64,000 nt of DNA. Source: Candidatus Gottesmanbacteria bacterium RIFCSPLOWO2_01_FULL_43_11b. Lineage in GTDB: Bacteria > Patescibacteriota > Microgenomatia > UBA10105 > UBA927. Below, in pieces: positions 17,569 to 30,470 of the stretch. Numbering within the stretch: the stretch's first letter is position 1; the number at the start of each line of letters is the position of its first letter. The position numbers and the translations under genes are program-made. The notes under the pieces are model-generated. The model did not search any database. It had not been told where the DNA came from and saw nothing but the letters and a program-made list of their open reading frames with translations. The stretch lies in NCBI GenBank assembly GCA_001780985.1, contig MFJV01000001.1:158980-222979 (forward strand), in the 5' to 3' direction.

Positions 17569-17611
17569 GAAGAGGTTAGGTTCTTTAAAAGAGGGCGGAA
17601 ATTGGAAAATT

Positions 17612-17755
17612 TAAAGCGTGTGGACCAGCCCCTCGCGAGGAGCTGGTATACGAGGAAGGGGAAAATCGAATAGCCCGCCAGTCGGCGGATAAATCTGCGG
17701 ATACCCCTTGGTAGCGCTCTCTACCACAACAATAGACAGAAATGACTATTGAGGA
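17612..17755 (+). promoter_or_regulatory. glmS ribozyme/riboswitch
   Basis: aA|GCG cleavage-site context at 17615/17616. P1 hairpin gaccagc..gctggt. Conserved core strings ACGAGGA and AUCGAA..UCGGCGGAU. Sits directly upstream of glmS. Confidence 0.75.
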
Positions 17756-17778
17756 GCCCGTCTCTCTTTCTAAACTTC

Positions 17779-19551
17779 ATGTGTGGAATATTTGGCTACG
17801 TTGGTCCTAGCCCTCATGGTGCAAAGATAGTTCTTGAAGGTCTCAAACGACTTGAATATCGCGGTTACGATAGTTGGGGAGTTGCTGTTGTACCTGCTTC
17901 AAAGGGTAAAATTGTCGTAAAGAAAAAAGCCGGAAGAATAGGCAAAGCTAGTGTTTCTGATATGCCAAAAGGGTCTGTTGCGTTCGGGCATACCCGCTGG
18001 GCAACCCATGGAGGAGTTACCGATGTTAATGCACACCCTCACCTTGACTGCACAGGAAATCTTGCTGTCATTCACAATGGTATTTTTGAAAACTATGAGA
18101 GTATAAAGCAGGATCTTATTAAAAAAGGGCACCGTTTTATCTCCCAAACAGATACCGAAGTTATCGCCCACCTCATTGAAGAATATGCAAAGACCATGAT
18201 GTTAAGTAAGGCAGTGCAACGGGCGTATAACGAAATGGAAGGTCTTAACGCATTCATAGTTATCCAGACAAAAGAACACCTCCTCCTTGGGGTAAGAAAT
18301 GGGTCACCCTTAGTCGTCGGATTCGGAGATCCGGAAAATTATTTGGCAAGTGATGCTGCAGCGCTCATTCCCCATACCCGGCAGGTTCATTTTCTTGAAG
18401 ATGATCAAATGGTAATTGTTGGAACTGATCAGGTAAACATATTTAACGCAAGAACCGGTGAACGCATTCGTCCGCTTAAACAGAAACTTACCTGGTCAGC
18501 AGAGCAGGCAGAAAAAGGAAAATTCCCTTATTTCATGCTGAAAGAAATTTATGAACAGCCCGGGCTTATTTCAGAAATTGCCGGAGAATCAACGATCCAA
18601 GCCAAAAAAATTGCGGAGGTTCTTAAAAACGCACATGGCGCCTATATCGTTGGCTGCGGAACTGCCGGATATGCTGCTCTTGCTGCTCAATATCTCTTTT
18701 CAGCCATATCAAACAGACACGTTAACTCTGTTATTGGCAGCGAATTTGGCTACCTCCAAAATTTTCTCGTGAAAAGAAGTGCCGTACTTGCCCTTTCACA
18801 ATCCGGCGAAACCATGGATATTCTTGAGGGAGTCAAGAAAGCCAAAGACAAAGGTGCAAAAATTGTTTCTTTGGTTAATGTCGTCGGATCCTCGCTTTGG
18901 CGGTTATCAGATGTAAGACTCCCAATTGGTGTAGGGCCGGAGAAAGGGGTCGCATCTACCAAAGCATTCATCGGGAAACTTACCCATCTCATACTTCTCT
19001 CTTACGCAATGATAGGCAAAATTACCAAGGGTCAGCGGATACTCACGCGGGCTGCAAAAGCAGCAACCGAGGTTCTCAAAGAGCAGCGGGTGAGTAAAAT
19101 AATGAAACTTGCAAAAAAACTCAAAAATACGGAACATATTTTTGTTATCGGGAGAGGGCTTTCATATCCTGCGGCGCTTGAAACAGCGCTAAAAATTAAG
19201 GAAATTTCCTATATCCATGCCGAGGGCTTGGCCGCAGGGGAACTCAAACACGGCCCACTTGCGCTTGTGACGAAAGGCATTCCCTGCATCGTATTTGCAC
19301 CCAACGATGAAACACAGGGAGCAAATCTTGCGGGAGCCATGGAAATGAAAGCACGAGGTGCGTATATTATCGGGATCTCACCCAAAAAGCATGAGGTTTT
19401 TGATTATTATCTGCCGGTTAAAGACGTGGGAGAGGCAACAATTATTCCCAATGTCATCGTTGCCCAGCTTCTGGCGTACTATTTAGCAATAGAGCGCGGC
19501 TTCGACCCCGATATGCCGAGGAATCTAGCAAAAAGTGTAACAGTAAAATGA
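17779..19551 (+). CDS. glmS: glutamine--fructose-6-phosphate aminotransferase
   Basis: Starts MCGIFGY (Ntn Cys) at ATG 17779, contains two SIS domains, and ends ..AKSVTVK. Confidence 0.93.
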   Translation: MCGIFGYVGPSPHGAKIVLEGLKRLEYRGYDSWGVAVVPASKGKIVVKKKAGRIGKASVSDMPKGSVAFGHTRWATHGGVTDVNAHPHLDCTGNLAVIHNGIFENYESIKQDLIKKGHRFISQTDTEVIAHLIEEYAKTMMLSKAVQRAYNEMEGLNAFIVIQTKEHLLLGVRNGSPLVVGFGDPENYLASDAAALIPHTRQVHFLEDDQMVIVGTDQVNIFNARTGERIRPLKQKLTWSAEQAEKGKFPYFMLKEIYEQPGLISEIAGESTIQAKKIAEVLKNAHGAYIVGCGTAGYAALAAQYLFSAISNRHVNSVIGSEFGYLQNFLVKRSAVLALSQSGETMDILEGVKKAKDKGAKIVSLVNVVGSSLWRLSDVRLPIGVGPEKGVASTKAFIGKLTHLILLSYAMIGKITKGQRILTRAAKAATEVLKEQRVSKIMKLAKKLKNTEHIFVIGRGLSYPAALETALKIKEISYIHAEGLAAGELKHGPLALVTKGIPCIVFAPNDETQGANLAGAMEMKARGAYIIGISPKKHEVFDYYLPVKDVGEATIIPNVIVAQLLAYYLAIERGFDPDMPRNLAKSVTVK

Positions 19552-25266: not shown

Positions 25267-26853
25267 CTAAAGGTAACCACCGTCTCTCAGGTGTGTTTCT
25301 ATATCTTTCTCAGAAAACCCTATTTTTTGGGCTATTTTATCCGCATGACTGGAAGTCGAAATACCAGGAACCAATTTAAAGGTTGGGTGATCACCATCAA
25401 ACTCCACTTGTAGGAACTGTCCTTTCTCTTCTTCTTTGAAATCATAAACCAATTCATGGTTATGGGTAACCAAAACAGTAGTGCCACCTTTTTTCTCGAA
25501 ACCATTCAAAACTGCCTGTGAGACCTGCATTTTCTCCTCTCTTGTTGTTCCTTCTGCCAACTCGTCCAGAACAACTAAACTTTTTGACCCGATAGAAAAA
25601 AAGATGTCGCGGGTTCTTGAAAGTTCGGTCCCAAACCGTCCTTCAGAATCTTCCAGAGCATCAAATTTCGGAGCTTGGTAAGCAATCTTTGTAGCCACAT
25701 TAATGACAGCGTTTTTTGCCAAAATGTCGCATCCTATTTGAGCCATAAGCTGACTCTGCACCACAGTTTTGCAGATTGTGGTTTTACCGCCACTATTTGG
25801 GCCTGTCACAAAGATAAGACCACGTAAGTCTACGGCATTTGGAACAAAATTTTCATCCTCCTTACCTAAAACAGGATTTCTTAGATCTTCAGCCTTAAAA
25901 GAATGACTGTTGTTATCTGTAATTTTGGGCGTAACCGTTGAGCTGGCCGCGGTTTTTGAGAACTCGAGGAAAGAGTTTAATTCATCTACTTTGCCGACTA
26001 CATCAACAGCCTGCAAAAATATTTGATTTTTTTGAGCAAGTTCATTTAAAGGCTGAATAAACGTTCGAAGATCAATTGTTGGTTTGACCCGATTTGCCAT
26101 CATTCCAAACATTGGCAGATATAAATTAATGATAAGGTAAAGGTCCATTTTATCGTCAAAAATGCTTAGTACTTCCTTTTGTTTAAATCCGGTAAACGCT
26201 GAGATTGCAAAAAATCCAAATGGGATCATCGGAATGATTGTTGAAGGACCGAAGCTCGTTGGCCAAAATCTTCTTTTTAGAGTCCAAAATCGAACCTCCT
26301 CTTTTGATTTTAATCCCTGTCTTGTTTTATAGATTGGACCTCTCATGAGCTGATAGACCGAAGACTTTTCGTAACTCTTAATAACGTCGGCTAAATTTTT
26401 AAGATACGCAGATTCAGGTTTTGGGATAACTCTGGATATTTCTTTTAAGTCTGAGGCTGCTTTTGTCGCCAGTTTAAAATCTTTATACGGGAACATCGTA
26501 TCCAAATCGTCATTGATAAATTTAAGAAAAGAATCTTCGAGAGCCTTAAAATTTTCAAGATAATCAATAATTGGTTTTCTGATCCGGTCGTTATTTCTAA
26601 GCTCTGCAACTGCTTCCTGCTTTGCCTGCACCACATTAATATCCTGGGGTGGGTGGGTTAAAGACCGATACAGAGTCAATGAACCCAAAGAAGTTATCGT
26701 GTGGTTCAGAGACTCATGCAAGTCATCTACCTGAATGAGTCGAAGTGATTCGCGGTCAGTGACCCCATCTTCGAGTTCATCAAGTAAGTCGTTGTGAATT
26801 ATTTGTAAAAGAGGTTTCTCACCTCTTGCGGTAAATCTGAGATGCTCAACCAT
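25267..26853 (-). CDS. MutS-related ATPase (domain V only) with central hydrophobic helices
   Basis: Walker A GPNSGGKTT, and LVVLDELAEGTT followed by TH (MutS domain V). No mismatch-binding domain. There are two hydrophobic segments near residues 220-290. Start chosen at ATG 26853. Confidence 0.75.
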   Translation of the reverse strand: MVEHLRFTARGEKPLLQIIHNDLLDELEDGVTDRESLRLIQVDDLHESLNHTITSLGSLTLYRSLTHPPQDINVVQAKQEAVAELRNNDRIRKPIIDYLENFKALEDSFLKFINDDLDTMFPYKDFKLATKAASDLKEISRVIPKPESAYLKNLADVIKSYEKSSVYQLMRGPIYKTRQGLKSKEEVRFWTLKRRFWPTSFGPSTIIPMIPFGFFAISAFTGFKQKEVLSIFDDKMDLYLIINLYLPMFGMMANRVKPTIDLRTFIQPLNELAQKNQIFLQAVDVVGKVDELNSFLEFSKTAASSTVTPKITDNNSHSFKAEDLRNPVLGKEDENFVPNAVDLRGLIFVTGPNSGGKTTICKTVVQSQLMAQIGCDILAKNAVINVATKIAYQAPKFDALEDSEGRFGTELSRTRDIFFSIGSKSLVVLDELAEGTTREEKMQVSQAVLNGFEKKGGTTVLVTHNHELVYDFKEEEKGQFLQVEFDGDHPTFKLVPGISTSSHADKIAQKIGFSEKDIETHLRDGGYL

Positions 26854-27053
26854 AGCGACTGGGGCATTATAGCAGGTCTTTTGCCTTTTGCAAAAAATCG
26901 GTCGGGGCGCCGAATTGGTAGCGGATTGCGATCCACGCCACCCCCGCAATAAGAGCAATGAGCAGGATTACCAAAAGTGTGAGAGGAAATTTCATCTACT
27001 CGTACAATAGCGGGAAGTAATGACACGTGCAGTTCGATGGAGCACAAAGTGTG

Positions 27054-27252
27054 TGGGTGATCCAGGGATCGAACCTGGGACCTCGTTCTTATATCACCCG
27101 AGTGATATTTCACGCAAAATGATAATGTGGGTGCGCATGGAATCGAACCATGTGCCTCTTTCTTATCAGGAAAGCGTTCTACCAGTGAACTACGCACCCT
27201 TCTTCATTTTGCGTGAACGCAGGAACGCGCTCTACCACTGAGCCAATCACCC
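27054..27252 (-). tRNA. interrupted tRNA gene with a 127-nt insert in the anticodon loop (anticodon GCG/Arg if joined at 36/37; identity uncertain)
   Basis: Exon 1 (27252..27218) is gggtgat tg gctc agtggta gagc g cgttc ctgcg. Exon 2 (27090..27054) is aa gaacg aggtc ccagg ttcgatc cctgg atcaccc a. The acceptor, anticodon and T stems are all perfect once the insert is removed. Confidence 0.6.
27128..27199 (-). tRNA. tRNA-Ile (anticodon GAU), nested inside the interrupted tRNA
   Basis: Hand-folded 72-nt cloverleaf: gggtgcg ta gttc actggta gaac g ctttc cuGAUaa gaaag aggca catgg ttcgatt ccatg cgcaccc a. Confidence 0.85.
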
Positions 27253-27267
27253 TTTAAAACAAATTTG

Positions 27268-27339
27268 AGGTGCGGAGGGGAATCGAACCCCTGTGTTGCG
27301 GTTTTGCAGACCGCCGCGTTACCTCTTCGCCACCGCACC
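27268..27339 (-). tRNA. tRNA-Cys (anticodon GCA)
   Basis: ggtgcgg..gcggt cuGCAaa accgc..agggg ttcgatt cccct ccgcacc u. The U73 discriminator is typical of Cys. Confidence 0.85.
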
Positions 27340-27702: not shown

Positions 27703-27966
27703 AGAGGTGTTAGTGTAGCAGGATTTCTTTTCTTTGACAATCGAATGGTGACAGGAAGAAATTGAGAGTTGTCACTCAACCATCTTTTATACACTAAAAG
27801 ACGATTTGCTCGAGAGTGACTTTGTCCCGCTCTCAGCGGGACGGATAATCAATCTCATCTTGAATTCCTCGCTCCGATTAGATCGGAGTGTAAATTCTCA
27901 ATGACACTGATTTTATAAATAGAAAGGAGGTGATCCATCCCCAGCTTCGGCTAGGGATACCTTGTT

Positions 27967-28663
27967 CATGTTTATTCCCGGTTTTCACCGGGGCATGGAC
28001 TATATCTTCATCCGCAAAAATTGACGTTTTTCTGGATGAACCGAACCAATTATTTTTGCAAAATCGTTGTAAGACCTTGCCGAAATATAAAATCTCCAAT
28101 AATTCGGATCAACCGTTTTACTAGGATTATGAATTACTCCACAATGAATACTTAATTCTTCTAAATAGTGTTTTACTTGTAAAAGATCTTGCTTGTCCTT
28201 TTGACAAAAATACAAGTAATACCTCACCGAAGAATTTTTAGCAATACCACCTTCTGCATCGAAATAACCTCGGATATATTCGATTTTGTCGTTCTTAGAA
28301 CGTATTTCAATATCTCGTAAAATCTTTTTCGGAAATTCTACTATCCAAAGATTACGAGACTTTCCTTCTTTATATATCCAAGCTCCAACATGTAATTTAC
28401 GAATTCCTATTTTTAGAAACTGCGCAAATTCTCTACTGTTAGTTGCTATTCGATAGGTAGATTGCCGACTGGTACCATCGTGAGCCATTCCCAATAAATA
28501 TGGTTTCGTCATATGCGGCGCCAACGTGTAGTCTCTACGGAGTCCCCGATATAATCAGGGTTCCCTCGGTATTCCCATATGTTGATTATAAACCAAGCAT
28601 GAAGGGTTCACCGATACAGTTGGATTTTCCCATACCCTTACGGATATGGGTCGCAACAAACTT
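27967..28663 (-). mobile_element. group I intron (697 nt) in the 16S 3' region (inside the 1492R primer site), carrying a homing endonuclease ORF
   Basis: It splits AAGTCGT|AACAAGG. The 5' exon ends in U and the intron ends in G. Core strings AGAGACUACACG (28525..28536) and GAUAUAGUCC (27997..28006) flank the ORF. Confidence 0.8.
28000..28524 (-). CDS. LAGLIDADG homing endonuclease (intron-encoded)
   Basis: 174 aa with two LAGLIDADG-like motifs (YLLGMAHDGT and YIRGYFDAEGG). The TAG stop lies inside the intron core element GAUAUAGUCC. Confidence 0.82.
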   Translation of the reverse strand: MAPHMTKPYLLGMAHDGTSRQSTYRIATNSREFAQFLKIGIRKLHVGAWIYKEGKSRNLWIVEFPKKILRDIEIRSKNDKIEYIRGYFDAEGGIAKNSSVRYYLYFCQKDKQDLLQVKHYLEELSIHCGVIHNPSKTVDPNYWRFYISARSYNDFAKIIGSVHPEKRQFLRMKI

Positions 28664-29056
28664 ACGACTTAGTCCCCATCGCTGAGTTCGGCTTCGACCG
28701 TAAAAACGGCCTTCAGCCGCCCCCAACTTTGTTGGCTTGACGGGCGGTGTGTACAAGACCCGAGAACGTATTCACCGCAGCCTTCTGATCTGCGATTACT
28801 ACCGATTCCGACTTCATGAGGGCGGGTTGCAGCCCTCAATCTGAACTGAGGCGAAATTTCAGGGATTTGCTTGCCATTACTAGTTTGCATCCCATTGTTT
28901 TTCGCCATTGTAGGGTGTGTGTTACCCAGGGTATAAGCGCCGTGCTGACTTGACGTCGTCCGTTCCTTCCTCCCCGATACATATCGGGGCAGTCTCCGAT
29001 GACACTTATAACATCGGATACGGGTTGCGCTCGTTCTCCTACTTAAAGGAACACCC

Positions 29057-29087
<31 letters not shown>

Positions 29088-29202
29088 GCTGTGATACCAT
29101 CCTTGCGGATAGCCTACTATTTCTAGCGGGTTAAAACGGTACCATGTCAAACCCTGGTAAGGTTTTTCGCTTTGTCTCGAATTGAACCACACGCTCCACC
29201 GG

Positions 29203-29234
<32 letters not shown>

Positions 29235-29625
29235 TAATCTTGCGATCGTACTCCCCAGGCGGTCTGCTTAACGCGTTAGCTTACGTCAGTCCCCCTTGCG
29301 GCGGACCAACTAGCAGACATGCGTTTAGGGCTAGGACTACGCAGGTCTCTAATCTGCTTCGCTCCCCTAGCTTTCGTGTCTCAGCGTTAGGTGTGGGCCA
29401 GAAAGGTGCCTTCGCCTTTGGTGTTCCTCATGATATCAACGCATTTCACTGCTTCACCATGAGTTCCCCTTTCCTCTCCCATCCTCAAAGACTCCCCATC
29501 TCGAACCCAACGCCGAGGTTAAGCCTCGGGCTTTCAGGTTCGATGCGGAAATCCGCCTACACGACACTTTACGCCCAGTGAATCCGGATAACGCTTGCAC
29601 CCTACGTATTACCGCGACTGCTGGC

Positions 29626-29880
29626 CCGCCACAATTTTTTGTAGCGAACTTTGGACTATATCATCACCCCACAGATTGGGGGTCTCGCGTGTAGTCTCTG
29701 AGGACTCTCCCCGCCATCCTTTCATTATAAATGAAGGCGGAGGTTGCCTGCTGATTGTCTTGATACATGCTTGCTTTCGCAAAACTATTTCGCGGACATA
29801 TCAAGGTGTTCCAGCATATAGCGAGATTTTCTTTTACCGTATTACTACAGTAACTACGCACCATCCGATTACATCGAATC
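29626..29880 (-). mobile_element. ORF-less group I intron (255 nt) in the 16S 515-region
   Basis: It splits AACTACGT|GCCAGCAG. It has the same AGAGACUACACG (29688..29699) and GAUAUAGUCC (29653..29662) core strings as the other intron, with a short P8-like hairpin between them. It starts after U and ends in G. Confidence 0.75.
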
Positions 29881-30286
29881 ACGTAGTTTGTAGGTGCTTA
29901 TTCGCCAAACCTCGATGATCTGGCAAAAGAGGTTTACATACCGAAATACTTCATCCCTCACGCGGCGTCGCTCGGTCAGGCTTTCGCCCATTGCCGAATA
30001 TTCCTAGTTGCTGCCATCCGTAGATGTATAGCCCGTGTCTCAGTGCTATTGTGGGGGGTCGCGCTCTCACGCCCCCTACCCGTCATCGCCTTGGTAGGCC
30101 ATTACCCCACCAACAAGCTGATAGGAGCAAGGCCGCTCTTCCTCCGTGCCGTTACGCACTTTGATCTTACGACCTCATGGAATATTACCCCGTCTTTCGA
30201 CGAGCTATGTTCCAGAAAAAGGTACGTTCCTTGCTTATACTCACCCGTCCGCCACTAATCTTTCGACCGTTCAACTTGCATGCCTA

Positions 30287-30329
<43 letters not shown>

Positions 30330-30470
30330 AAAAAAAATTAACGTCCCGGATATCATGATTCGCTTACGCTCATCACCATCCGGGTCCGGCTGATGTCGCA
30401 ACGCGACATAATAGCCGGATTCCTATCACCATTCGTTTGTCAAATGTTAATGTGCGACTCTCAATGAGCG

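What the first reader, a model, noticed from the sequence alone, without database searches (positions are those of the whole stretch)
27967..28663. Group I intron with a LAGLIDADG homing endonuclease inside the 16S 3' end, within the universal 1492R primer site
The 16S sequence AAGTCGT|AACAAGG is split by 697 nt. The 5' exon ends in U and the insert ends in G. The insert carries AGAGACUACACG and GAUAUAGUCC, which correspond to the Tetrahymena-type ACAGACUAAAUG and GAUAUAGUCGG core (P7 / J8-7 region, recalled from memory). A 174-aa double-motif LAGLIDADG ORF occupies the P8 position, and its TAG stop lies within GAUAUAGUCC. Intron-bearing 16S genes have been reported for CPR bacteria. This one is informative because ORF and ribozyme core physically overlap, and because it would block amplification and distort length-based 16S screening.
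Basis: partly seen in the sequence, partly recalled or inferred. Interest (0 to 1): 0.55.

Follow-up and report, generated by a model that had tools for sequence, protein, structure and literature searches.

The report
Mobile group I intron in 16S
The 697-base insert near the 3' end of this candidate-phyla-radiation bacterium's 16S rRNA gene is a genuine group I intron carrying its own homing endonuclease gene, but this kind of element at this exact site (position 1498) has already been described for these bacteria.

Summary
The 16S rRNA gene lies on the minus strand. It is interrupted between AAGUCGU and AACAAGG by 697 nt (window 27967-28663), which is E. coli U1498/A1499, inside the 1492R primer site.

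The insert folds as a complete group I intron, P1 to P10:
- a U.G wobble at the 5' splice site;
- an internal guide sequence, UUGUU-GCGAC, complementary to both exon ends;
- the P3/P7 pseudoknot;
- a terminal G.

Eighteen homologous introns at the same site give strong covariation: 89.6% of cells paired against about 40% for slid controls, with compensatory changes in P2, P3, P4/P5, P8 and P9. Rfam RF00028 scores the window copy at only 38.3 bits, below its threshold of 50, because the ORF splits the model. A family member with a shorter ORF passes at 58.8 bits.

The 170-aa ORF sits in the P8 loop. It is a LAGLIDADG_3 protein whose predicted fold is a two-domain monomer like I-DmoI. Its last five codons and TAG stop lie in P8', J8/7 and P7'. 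Relatives at about 90% 16S identity exist with and without the intron.

Tsurumaki et al. 2024, following Brown et al. 2015, already report group I introns with LAGLIDADG_2/_3 genes at 16S position 1498 in CPR bacteria. The verdict is real, well read, and already known.

The parts
27923..27966 (-). 16S rRNA 3' exon (E. coli 1499-1542 equivalent: AACAAGGUAUCCC...CACCUCCUUU, helix 45 and the anti-Shine-Dalgarno sequence)
   Evidence: sequence read directly
27967..28663 (-). Group I intron, 697 nt, inserted after U1498 of the 16S rRNA
28664..28668 (-). P1 5' strand (last 5 nt of the 5' exon, GUCGU). U at 28664 forms the U.G wobble at the 5' splice site
   Evidence: sequence; pair invariant in 18/18 homologs
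28650..28659 (-). Internal guide sequence UUGUU-GCGAC. GCGAC (28654-28650) pairs with the 5' exon (P1). UUGUU (28659-28655) pairs with the 3' exon AACAA 27966-27962 (P10)
   Evidence: sequence; P1 100% and P10 85.6% of cells paired over 18 homologs
28630..28649 (-). P2 hairpin CCAUAUCC-GUAA-GGGUAUGG (GNRA loop)
   Evidence: MFE fold; 8/8 pairs with compensatory changes, 96.5% paired
28619..28623 (-). P3 5' strand CCAAC (pseudoknot partner of 28525-28521)
   Evidence: 4/5 pairs with compensatory changes, 98.9% paired
28566..28614 (-). P4-P5 domain: P4 UCGGUG/UACCGA, P5 CCC/GGG plus a distal hairpin
   Evidence: MFE fold; 6/9 pairs with compensatory changes
28539..28564 (-). P6/P6a hairpin
   Evidence: MFE fold. 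Alignment across homologs is poor here, 76.9% paired
28529..28533 (-). P7 5' strand GACUA, within the conserved AGAGACUACACG
   Evidence: invariant in 18/18; matches the RF00028 consensus
28521..28525 (-). P3 3' strand GUUGG
28514..28518 (-). P8 5' strand CCGCA
   Evidence: MFE fold; 4/5 pairs with compensatory changes
28000..28512 (-). LAGLIDADG_3 homing endonuclease ORF, 170 aa plus stop, ATG at 28512 (an in-frame TTG at 28524 would give 174 aa). It sits in the P8 loop. The last 5 codons and the TAG overlap P8 3', J8/7 and P7 3'
28012..28016 (-). P8 3' strand UGCGG (inside the ORF)
27998..28002 (-). P7 3' strand UAGUC. Its UAG is the ORF stop codon
27977..27992 (-). P9 hairpin CCCGGU-GAAA-ACCGGG
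   Evidence: 6/6 pairs with compensatory changes
27967..27967 (-). Terminal (omega) G of the intron
   Evidence: sequence. In all 22 homologous loci where both junction motifs were found (22 of 23), the insert ends in G immediately before AACAAGG

Best explanation
Window 27967-28663 (minus strand) is a mobile group I intron in the single 16S rRNA gene of a Candidatus Gottesmanbacteria (CPR/Patescibacteria) genome. It is inserted between U1498 and A1499.

Inferred mechanism (the standard group I pathway):
- In the pre-rRNA, the guide sequence UUGUU-GCGAC pairs with the end of the 5' exon (P1, with U1498.G) and the start of the 3' exon (P10).
- The P3-P9 core folds around the P7 guanosine-binding site.
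- An external guanosine attacks after U1498.
- The freed 3'-OH of U1498 attacks after the terminal G (27967). This ligates AAGUCGU to AACAAGG and restores the decoding-centre and helix 44/45 sequence.

The P8 loop carries a 170-aa, two-domain monomeric LAGLIDADG endonuclease of the I-DmoI type. It is presumed to cut intron-less 16S rDNA around the 1498/1499 junction, so that recombinational repair copies the intron in (homing).

Because the ORF's last five codons and stop codon form P8', J8/7 and P7', a ribosome finishing translation must unfold the catalytic core. Translation and splicing of one RNA molecule are therefore mutually exclusive.

Shown here: the boundaries, the fold, family-wide covariation, the protein family and fold, and presence/absence among relatives.
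Inferred: catalysis in vivo, the endonuclease's activity and target, and the translation/splicing antagonism.
For: Boundaries and numbering.

RNA fold:
- Unconstrained MFE folding of the ORF-deleted intron recovers P2, P4, P5, P6, P7, P8 and P9.
- P1, P3 and P10 are read directly from the sequence.
- RF00028 gives a partial hit of 38.3 bits, E 4.4e-8, on P8'-J8/7-P7'-P9.
- The homologous 513-nt intron in L022 scores 58.8 bits (threshold 50) over the whole model.

Family evidence:
- 22 of 23 genome loci with a homolog of the ORF have it in an insert at AAGTCGT|...G|AACAAGG, with a conserved GTTGCGAC guide.
- Covariation on 18 sequences: 89.6% of cells paired against 36-43% for slid controls; 30 of 54 pairs have changes on both sides; 0 of 500 shuffles reach the observed values. 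P2 has 8/8, P3 (the pseudoknot) 4/5, P8 4/5 and P9 6/6 compensatory pairs.

Protein:
- Pfam LAGLIDADG_3, 55.1 bits.
- 763 homologs, mostly from CPR and metagenomes.
- The motif acidic residues are conserved: D12 invariant and E87 at 90% or more.
- AlphaFold model with pLDDT 89.9 and two alpha-beta-beta-alpha-beta-beta repeats.
- Best PDB matches are I-DmoI over its full length (E 7e-8, TM 0.63-0.67), then I-Tsp061I.

Optional element:
- 107 metagenome stretches carry the uninterrupted 34-nt junction with these exact flanks.
- Relatives at about 90-91% 16S identity exist with the intron (L001, L002) and without it (L113, L085, L032).
- The endonuclease gene is decayed in L017, L022 and L023, as expected for a homing cycle.

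Literature: group I introns with LAGLIDADG_2/_3 ORFs at 16S position 1498 (site 16IS10) in CPR bacteria, and insertions reported as removed from transcripts (PMC11270868, citing Brown et al. 2015).
Against: - RF00028 does not reach its gathering score on this copy (38.3 against 50). It aligns only the 3' part, and a scan of the 5' half alone found nothing.
- No RNA data or biochemistry are available for this intron or, as far as I could find, for any S1498 intron of CPR bacteria.
- No Shine-Dalgarno-like sequence precedes the ATG at 28512 (read from the sequence).
- The P6 region aligns poorly across homologs (76.9% paired).
- P10 competes with an alternative pairing of GUUUGUU with AAUAAAC near the intron's 3' end (MFE).
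Confidence: 0.92

Rival explanations
1. It is a group I intron in origin but no longer self-splices efficiently. Splicing in vivo would depend on a protein cofactor, for example the encoded LAGLIDADG protein acting as a maturase, as I-AniI and bI3 do in fungal mitochondria.
For: LAGLIDADG proteins with maturase activity are established in other systems (general knowledge; mentioned in PMC11270868). The ORF is intact and conserved. The P5 and P6 peripheral domains are small and variable.
Against: All core pairings and the conserved J6/7, J8/7 and P7 sequences are intact and invariant across the family. Family members with decayed endonuclease genes (L017, L022, L023) keep an intact ribozyme core in what is presumably the only 16S gene, which argues against obligatory dependence on the protein. 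Patescibacterial tRNA group I introns self-splice in vitro (PMC13011429).
Confidence: 0.06
2. It is an intervening sequence that is cut out by RNase III or another nuclease without exon ligation. That would leave a fragmented 16S rRNA with a separate 44-nt 3' piece.
For: Excised but unligated intervening sequences are well known in bacterial 23S rRNA and are suspected for some short CPR insertions (PMC11270868).
Against: The insert has every group I element, including a guide sequence complementary to both exon ends, and these pairings covary. No long stem joins the two ends of the insert, as an RNase III substrate would require. The site lies in the decoding centre, where a nick is unlikely to be tolerated (inference).
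Confidence: 0.015
3. It is an assembly or binning artefact: a chimeric contig joining a 16S gene to unrelated mobile DNA.
For: The window comes from a metagenome-assembled genome. Some related loci carry implausible taxon labels.
Against: The same architecture is found at the same nucleotide in 22 independently assembled contigs from different studies. Both junctions are precise. The exons rejoin into a normal 16S 3' end.
Confidence: 0.005

Closest known systems
Group I introns with LAGLIDADG_2/_3 ORFs at position 1498 (site 16IS10) of CPR 16S rRNA genes (Tsurumaki et al. 2024, PMC11270868; first noted by Brown et al. 2015)
   Same: Same host group, same gene, same insertion position (1498), same intron class and same Pfam endonuclease family (LAGLIDADG_3, reported there only from 16S insertions). 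The window's element is a member of this set.
   Different: Nothing substantive. That survey classed LAGLIDADG_3 proteins by Pfam as single-domain with a non-domain N-terminal region. The model here shows a complete two-domain I-DmoI-like monomer. The published work gives no secondary structure or covariation analysis for the 1498 intron, and its biochemistry was done on a different enzyme (I-ShaI, LAGLIDADG_1, from a 23S intron).
I-DmoI, the monomeric two-motif LAGLIDADG endonuclease of the Desulfurococcus mobilis 23S rRNA intron, and I-Tsp061I (archaeal intron-encoded, as the PDB entry describes it)
   Same: Best structural matches over the full length (E 7e-8, TM about 0.65). Small two-domain monomer with one acidic catalytic residue per LAGLIDADG helix (D12 and E87 here), encoded in an rRNA intron.
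   Different: Only about 22% sequence identity, and no hit by sequence search of the PDB. The archaeal enzymes reside in protein-spliced (bulge-helix-bulge) introns, not in group I ribozymes (general knowledge).
[quoted passage not shown] 2012, cited in PMC11270868 and PMC3984707)
   Same: Bacterial 16S rRNA genes interrupted by group I introns, which defeat universal primers. According to PMC11270868 these are the only experimentally characterised bacterial 16S introns.
   Different: Different host phylum. According to PMC11270868, the group I intron site 16IS10 had not been reported in any other bacteria. I could not read the 2012 paper here.
Rfam RF00028 Intron_gpI, and small bacterial group I introns such as the tRNA introns of Azoarcus and Anabaena
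   Same: The P1-P10 architecture, the conserved J6/7-P7 (GUAGAGACUA) and J8/7-P7' (GAUAUAGUC) sequences, and GNRA loops on P2 and P9. The resemblance to Azoarcus is recalled from memory only.
   Different: It carries a 513-nt ORF in L8. Subgroup (IA/IC...) was not assigned because no subgroup models were available.

Membership tests
Group I intron (Rfam RF00028) | P1 helix formed by the end of the 5' exon and an internal guide sequence, with a U.G wobble at the 5' splice site | tested here: met
   GUCGU (28668-28664) pairs with GCGAC (28654-28650). The U.G pair and all 5 pairs are present in 18/18 homologs.
Group I intron (Rfam RF00028) | Terminal guanosine (omega G) at the 3' splice site, and P10 pairing of the guide with the 3' exon | tested here: met
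   G at 27967. In all 22 homologous loci where both junction motifs were found (22 of 23), the insert ends in G immediately before AACAAGG. UUGUU pairs with AACAA, 85.6% of cells paired.
Group I intron (Rfam RF00028) | Conserved core of P3-P8, including the P3/P7 pseudoknot, supported by covariation | tested here: met
   89.6% of cells paired against 36-43% in slid controls. P3 has 4/5, P4/P5 6/9 and P8 4/5 compensatory pairs. P7 is invariant. MFE folding recovers the nested helices.
Group I intron (Rfam RF00028) | Conserved J6/7-P7 and J8/7-P7' sequences (the guanosine-binding region) | tested here: met
   AGAGACUACACG and GAUGAAGAUAUAGUCC align to the RF00028 consensus AaAGACUAAAcG and gaUgAAGAUAUAGUCu.
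Group I intron (Rfam RF00028) | Score at or above the Rfam gathering threshold (50 bits) | tested here: inconclusive
   The window copy scores 38.3 bits (E 4.4e-8) on the 3' part only, because the ORF splits P8. The homologous intron with a shortened ORF in L022 scores 58.8 bits over model positions 1-253. An ORF-deleted construct could not be submitted to the Rfam tool.
Group I intron (Rfam RF00028) | Guanosine-dependent self-splicing with exon ligation | not testable with these tools
   Needs an in vitro splicing assay or RNA-seq junction reads. PMC11270868 cites Brown et al. 2015 for CPR rRNA insertions being removed from their transcripts.
LAGLIDADG homing endonuclease (Pfam PF14528, I-DmoI type) | Profile match above the curated cut-off | tested here: met
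   PF14528, 55.1 bits against a cut-off of 22.5, E 9.5e-15, two matched stretches.
LAGLIDADG homing endonuclease (Pfam PF14528, I-DmoI type) | Two LAGLIDADG helices, each ending in a catalytic acidic residue | tested here: met
   YLLGMAHDG (D12, invariant in 40 homologs) and YIRGYFDAEGG (E87, conserved at 90% or more; D85, G88 and G89 invariant).
LAGLIDADG homing endonuclease (Pfam PF14528, I-DmoI type) | Pseudo-dimeric two-domain alpha-beta-beta-alpha-beta-beta-alpha fold | tested here: met
   AlphaFold model with pLDDT 89.9 and pTM 0.86. The top 34 PDB matches are all I-DmoI, covering the full length.
LAGLIDADG homing endonuclease (Pfam PF14528, I-DmoI type) | Site-specific cleavage of the intron-less allele | not testable with these tools
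   Needs an enzyme assay. Only I-ShaI (LAGLIDADG_1, 23S) has been assayed among CPR enzymes (PMC11270868).
Mobile (optional) intron | Presence/absence polymorphism at an otherwise identical site among related genomes | tested here: met
   107 metagenome stretches carry the uninterrupted 34-nt site. Relatives at about 90% 16S identity exist with the intron (L001, L002) and without it (L113, L085, L032).

The most novel reading that the evidence does not exclude
The coding/ribozyme overlap may be a conserved regulatory device rather than an accident.

In every family member I examined, the endonuclease frame ends at the UAG inside the P7 3' strand. In about half of the family the ORF has no Met at the P8-loop start. 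It begins instead at an AUG in the P5 3' strand and reads through P4', P6, P7, P3' and P8 (M-x-IPREP...GLRRDYT...). In those members the protein's first 22-32 codons and last 5 codons are the catalytic core itself.

If translation and folding compete in this way, endonuclease synthesis would be limited to unspliced or misfolded pre-rRNA, and rRNA maturation would be protected from ribosome traffic. The window's copy has lost the long form through a TGA at 28557-28555.
Probability: 0.15. Interest if true: 0.4.

Novelty: already known. Interest (0 to 1): 0.18.

Why it matters
The practical consequence is real but already appreciated. In this organism both the 515F site (split by a second intron after U516) and the 1492R site (split after U1498) are interrupted. 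Amplicon surveys with these primers will therefore miss it, and automated 16S callers mis-end the gene: Rfam's SSU model forced its 3' end into the intron, at 28616.

The S1498 family is large (763 protein homologs found) and sits in the decoding centre next to m3U1498 and A1492/A1493. It is a good, compact candidate for the first biochemical demonstration of self-splicing and homing of a CPR rRNA intron. As a discovery it adds nothing categorically new.

Tried and rejected
- An Rfam scan of the 5' half alone (28505-28675) found no group I hit. The model needs both halves.
- A sequence search of the PDB with the endonuclease gave nothing at E <= 1. Only the fold search was informative.
- An Rfam scan of 20 loci at once failed internally. 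I repeated it on 6 loci.
- Brown et al. 2015 and Salman et al. 2012 are not held in the library. A search for the Thiomargarita site names returned only irrelevant papers. What I say about those two papers rests on how PMC11270868 and PMC3984707 cite them.
- Subgroup assignment (IA/IC) was not possible, because only the general RF00028 model is available.
- Shifting the boundary by 1-2 nt is possible in this copy, since the intron starts AAG and the 3' exon starts AAC. I rejected it because homologs whose introns begin with U, G or C fix the junction after AAGUCGU, and only that register gives the U.G pair and a terminal G.
- I considered a group II intron, an IS element and an RNase III-type intervening sequence. 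None fits the conserved core and covariation.

Full report
**What is there**

The Rfam scan places a bacterial 16S rRNA gene on the minus strand, reported as 28616-30335. Reading the minus strand shows that the gene does not end at 28616. The sequence ...GGGGACUAAGUCGU ends at 28664. A 697-nt insert follows, from 28663 down to 27967. The gene then resumes with AACAAGGUAUCCCUAGCCGAAGCUGGGGAUGGAUCACCUCCUUUCU, from 27966 down to about 27923.

The covariance model had forced the last 50 positions of the SSU model into the start of the insert (alignment). This illustrates how such inserts mislead automatic annotation.

In an E. coli 16S gene the U of AAGUCGU lies 44 nt from the 3' end. In the 1542-nt reference that is U1498. 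The split is therefore U1498|A1499, inside the 1492R primer site (1492-1510).

**Origin of the window**

The ORF product is 100% identical to a 'hypothetical protein A3A79_01140' of Candidatus Gottesmanbacteria bacterium RIFCSPLOWO2_01_FULL_43. This is a candidate-phyla-radiation (Patescibacteria) metagenome-assembled genome.

The 16S gene is followed by tRNA-Cys and tRNA-Ile and then a MutS-like gene. There is no 23S gene nearby.

**The RNA fold**

The insert can be folded by eye into a full group I intron:
- **P1:** 5' exon GUCGU with GCGAC (intron nt 10-14), with a U.G wobble at the splice site.
- **P10:** UUGUU (nt 5-9) with the first five bases of the 3' exon, AACAA. One contiguous guide, UUGUUGCGAC, is therefore complementary to the ligated exons GUCGU|AACAA.
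- **P2:** CCAUAUCC-GUAA-GGGUAUGG.
- **P3:** CCAAC with GUUGG (the pseudoknot).
- **P4:** UCGGUG with UACCGA.
- **P5 and P6/P6a:** short helices.
- **P7:** GACUA with UAGUC.
- **P8:** CCGCA with UGCGG, closing a loop of about 500 nt.
- **P9:** CCCGGU-GAAA-ACCGGG.
- **Terminal G:** at 27967.

When the P8 loop is replaced by a tetraloop, unconstrained minimum-free-energy folding recovers P2, P4, P5, P6, P7, P8 and P9.

RF00028 finds the P8'-J8/7-P7'-P9 part at 38.3 bits (E 4.4e-8 in a 901-nt search). This is below the gathering score of 50, and the 5' half is mis-aligned because of the ORF. The 5' half alone gives nothing.

**Comparative evidence**

A scan of one genome per species with the ORF product returned 23 loci at 44-81% protein identity. 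They come mostly from Microgenomates, Parcubacteria and other Patescibacteria.

In 22 of the 23 loci the gene lies in an insert of 513-877 nt at exactly AAGTCGT|...G|AACAAGG, with the guide GTTGCGAC conserved. Homologs whose introns begin with U, G or C remove the 1-2 nt boundary ambiguity present in the window copy.

I aligned 18 ORF-deleted introns (A1) and counted the pairs of my structure:
- 89.6% of cells are standard pairs, against 36-43% when the 3' partners are slid by 1-3 columns.
- 30 of 54 pairs show changes on both sides.
- None of 500 shuffles reaches the observed values.
- P2 has compensatory changes in 8/8 pairs, the P3 pseudoknot in 4/5 (98.9% paired), P4/P5 in 6/9, P8 in 4/5 and P9 in 6/6.
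- P1 and P7 are invariant.

The family member with a shortened ORF (L022, 513 nt) is called by RF00028 end to end at 58.8 bits, above threshold. I regard the group I identity as established at the level sequence analysis can give.

**The protein**

From the ATG at 28512 the ORF encodes 170 aa, which is the length of the deposited protein. The mechanical ORF from the TTG at 28524 is 174 aa.

- It matches Pfam LAGLIDADG_3 at 55.1 bits.
- It has two motifs, YLLGMAHDG and YIRGYFDAEGG. Their acidic residues are D12, invariant, and E87, conserved at 90% or more, among 40 homologs.
- An AlphaFold model built on that alignment is confident (pLDDT 89.9, pTM 0.86) and shows two alpha-beta-beta-alpha-beta-beta repeats.
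- Its best PDB matches are I-DmoI over the full length (E about 1e-7, TM 0.63-0.67, about 22% identity). I-Tsp061I and the WhiA N-terminal domain follow.
- A plain sequence search of the PDB found nothing.

The published Pfam-based description of CPR LAGLIDADG_3 proteins as single-domain with a non-domain N-terminus (PMC11270868) understates this.

**Overlap of ORF and ribozyme**

The ATG lies one base after the P8 5' strand. The last codons, UUG CGG AUG AAG AUA UAG, are P8 3' (UGCGG), J8/7 and the first three bases of P7 3' (UAGUC).

The same termination inside P7' is found in every family member examined. The C-terminal ...LRMKI is thus dictated by the RNA. ORFs that extend into core sequences are a recognised arrangement in bacterial group I introns (PMC3984707, Fig. 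2b). It is not in itself new.

**Mobility**

The uninterrupted 34-nt junction with exactly these flanks occurs in 107 metagenome stretches.

Comparing the spliced 16S with all fetched loci shows relatives at about 90-91% identity that carry the intron (L001, L002). Others lack it, and in the case of L113 lack the second intron too (L113, L085, L032).

Three of the 23 loci have a frame-shifted or truncated endonuclease gene but an intact ribozyme core (L017, L022, L023). Sporadic distribution plus ORF decay is the signature of a homing cycle.

**Mechanism**

The best-supported account is the standard one:
1. Guanosine-initiated self-splicing removes the intron from the pre-16S rRNA and restores the decoding-centre sequence.
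2. The intron-encoded I-DmoI-type endonuclease cuts intron-less alleles at the 1498/1499 junction.
3. Repair copies the intron in.

The anatomy, covariation, protein identity and optional distribution are shown. Catalysis, enzyme activity and the mutual exclusion of translation and folding are inferred.

Rivals are a maturase-dependent intron (about 0.06), an unligated intervening sequence (about 0.015) and an assembly artefact (under 0.01).

**Comparison with what is known**

Tsurumaki et al. 2024 (PMC11270868) surveyed 380 CPR 16S genes:
- 48% carry insertions, and ten recurrent sites were numbered.
- Group I introns occur at sites 16IS4-7 and 16IS10.
[quoted passage not shown] - It cites Brown et al. 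2015 for the original discovery and for the insertions being removed from transcripts.

That 16IS10 corresponds to position 1498 is my inference from the text. The site map is a figure I could not read.

Patescibacterial tRNA group I introns have been shown to self-splice in vitro (PMC13011429). No S1498 intron or LAGLIDADG_3 enzyme of CPR bacteria appears to have been tested.

The window's element is thus a member of an already published class, at an already published site, in the host group where it was described. I rate it 'already known' and of low interest.

Noticed in passing
window 29626-29880 (-): A second, ORF-less group I intron (255 nt) in the same 16S gene. RF00028 scores it at 57.2 bits, above threshold (it reports 29631-29890). 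It is inserted after U516, inside the 515F primer site (GU|GCCAGCAG...). P1 is CUACGU/GCGUAG with a U.G wobble. Its core is about 75% identical to the ORF-deleted S1498 intron, so the two sites of one gene hold closely related introns, consistent with ectopic spread. Both 'universal' primer sites, 515F and 1492R, are split in this organism.
   Followed up: partly
homologs P0008-P0114 and loci L005, L006, L007, L013, L016, L022; window 28555-28557: In 26 of 40 sampled homologs the residue at the window protein's Met1 is I, V or F. About 20 of them start 22-32 codons upstream with M-x-IPREP...GLRRDYT..PQ(I/V)TK. That is the translation of the ribozyme core: P5'/P4' AUACCGAGGGAACCC, then P6, P7 AGAGACUACACG, P3' and P8. 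About half of the family therefore encodes the endonuclease N-terminus in the catalytic core. In the window this frame is closed by a TGA in the P6a loop, and the short form is used.
   Followed up: partly
L017, L022, L023: The endonuclease genes are frame-shifted or truncated (101, 133 and 69 open codons) while the intron core is intact. These look like stages of homing-endonuclease decay. L023 and L014 also carry an extra insertion that disrupts the usual P7 5' motif, and L023 has a group II D1-D4 hit nearby.
   Followed up: partly
L015, L020, L021 and the window's S516 intron: When P4 changes from UCGGUG/UACCGA to UGCUGG/UCAGCA, the J6/7 sequence changes from CCGUAGAG to CCUCAGAG. This looks like co-variation of J6/7 with P4, as expected for the base triples of group I cores. 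It was seen by eye only.
   Followed up: no
window 27127-27339 (-) and 25267-26958 (-): The 16S gene is followed by tRNA-Cys(GCA) and tRNA-Ile(GAU) and then a MutS-like gene. No 23S rRNA gene is found anywhere in the 64-kb window, so the rRNA genes are unlinked.
   Followed up: partly
window 28616-30335 (-): Rfam's SSU model reports the 16S gene as ending at 28616. It forces its last ~50 positions onto the P1-P2 region of the intron and misses the true 44-nt 3' exon at 27923-27966.
   Followed up: yes
window 17604-17761 (+): A glmS ribozyme (43.7 bits, threshold 37) lies directly upstream of, and slightly overlaps, a 600-aa GlmS ORF (SIS and GATase domains) at 17749-19551.
   Followed up: no
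L001, L006, L007, L008, L016, L022: Contigs carrying this CPR-type intron and CPR-like 16S exons are titled 'uncultured Gammaproteobacteria' or 'Pseudomonadales' MAGs. L001's 16S is 91% identical to the window's. This is probably bin contamination or mislabelling.
   Followed up: no
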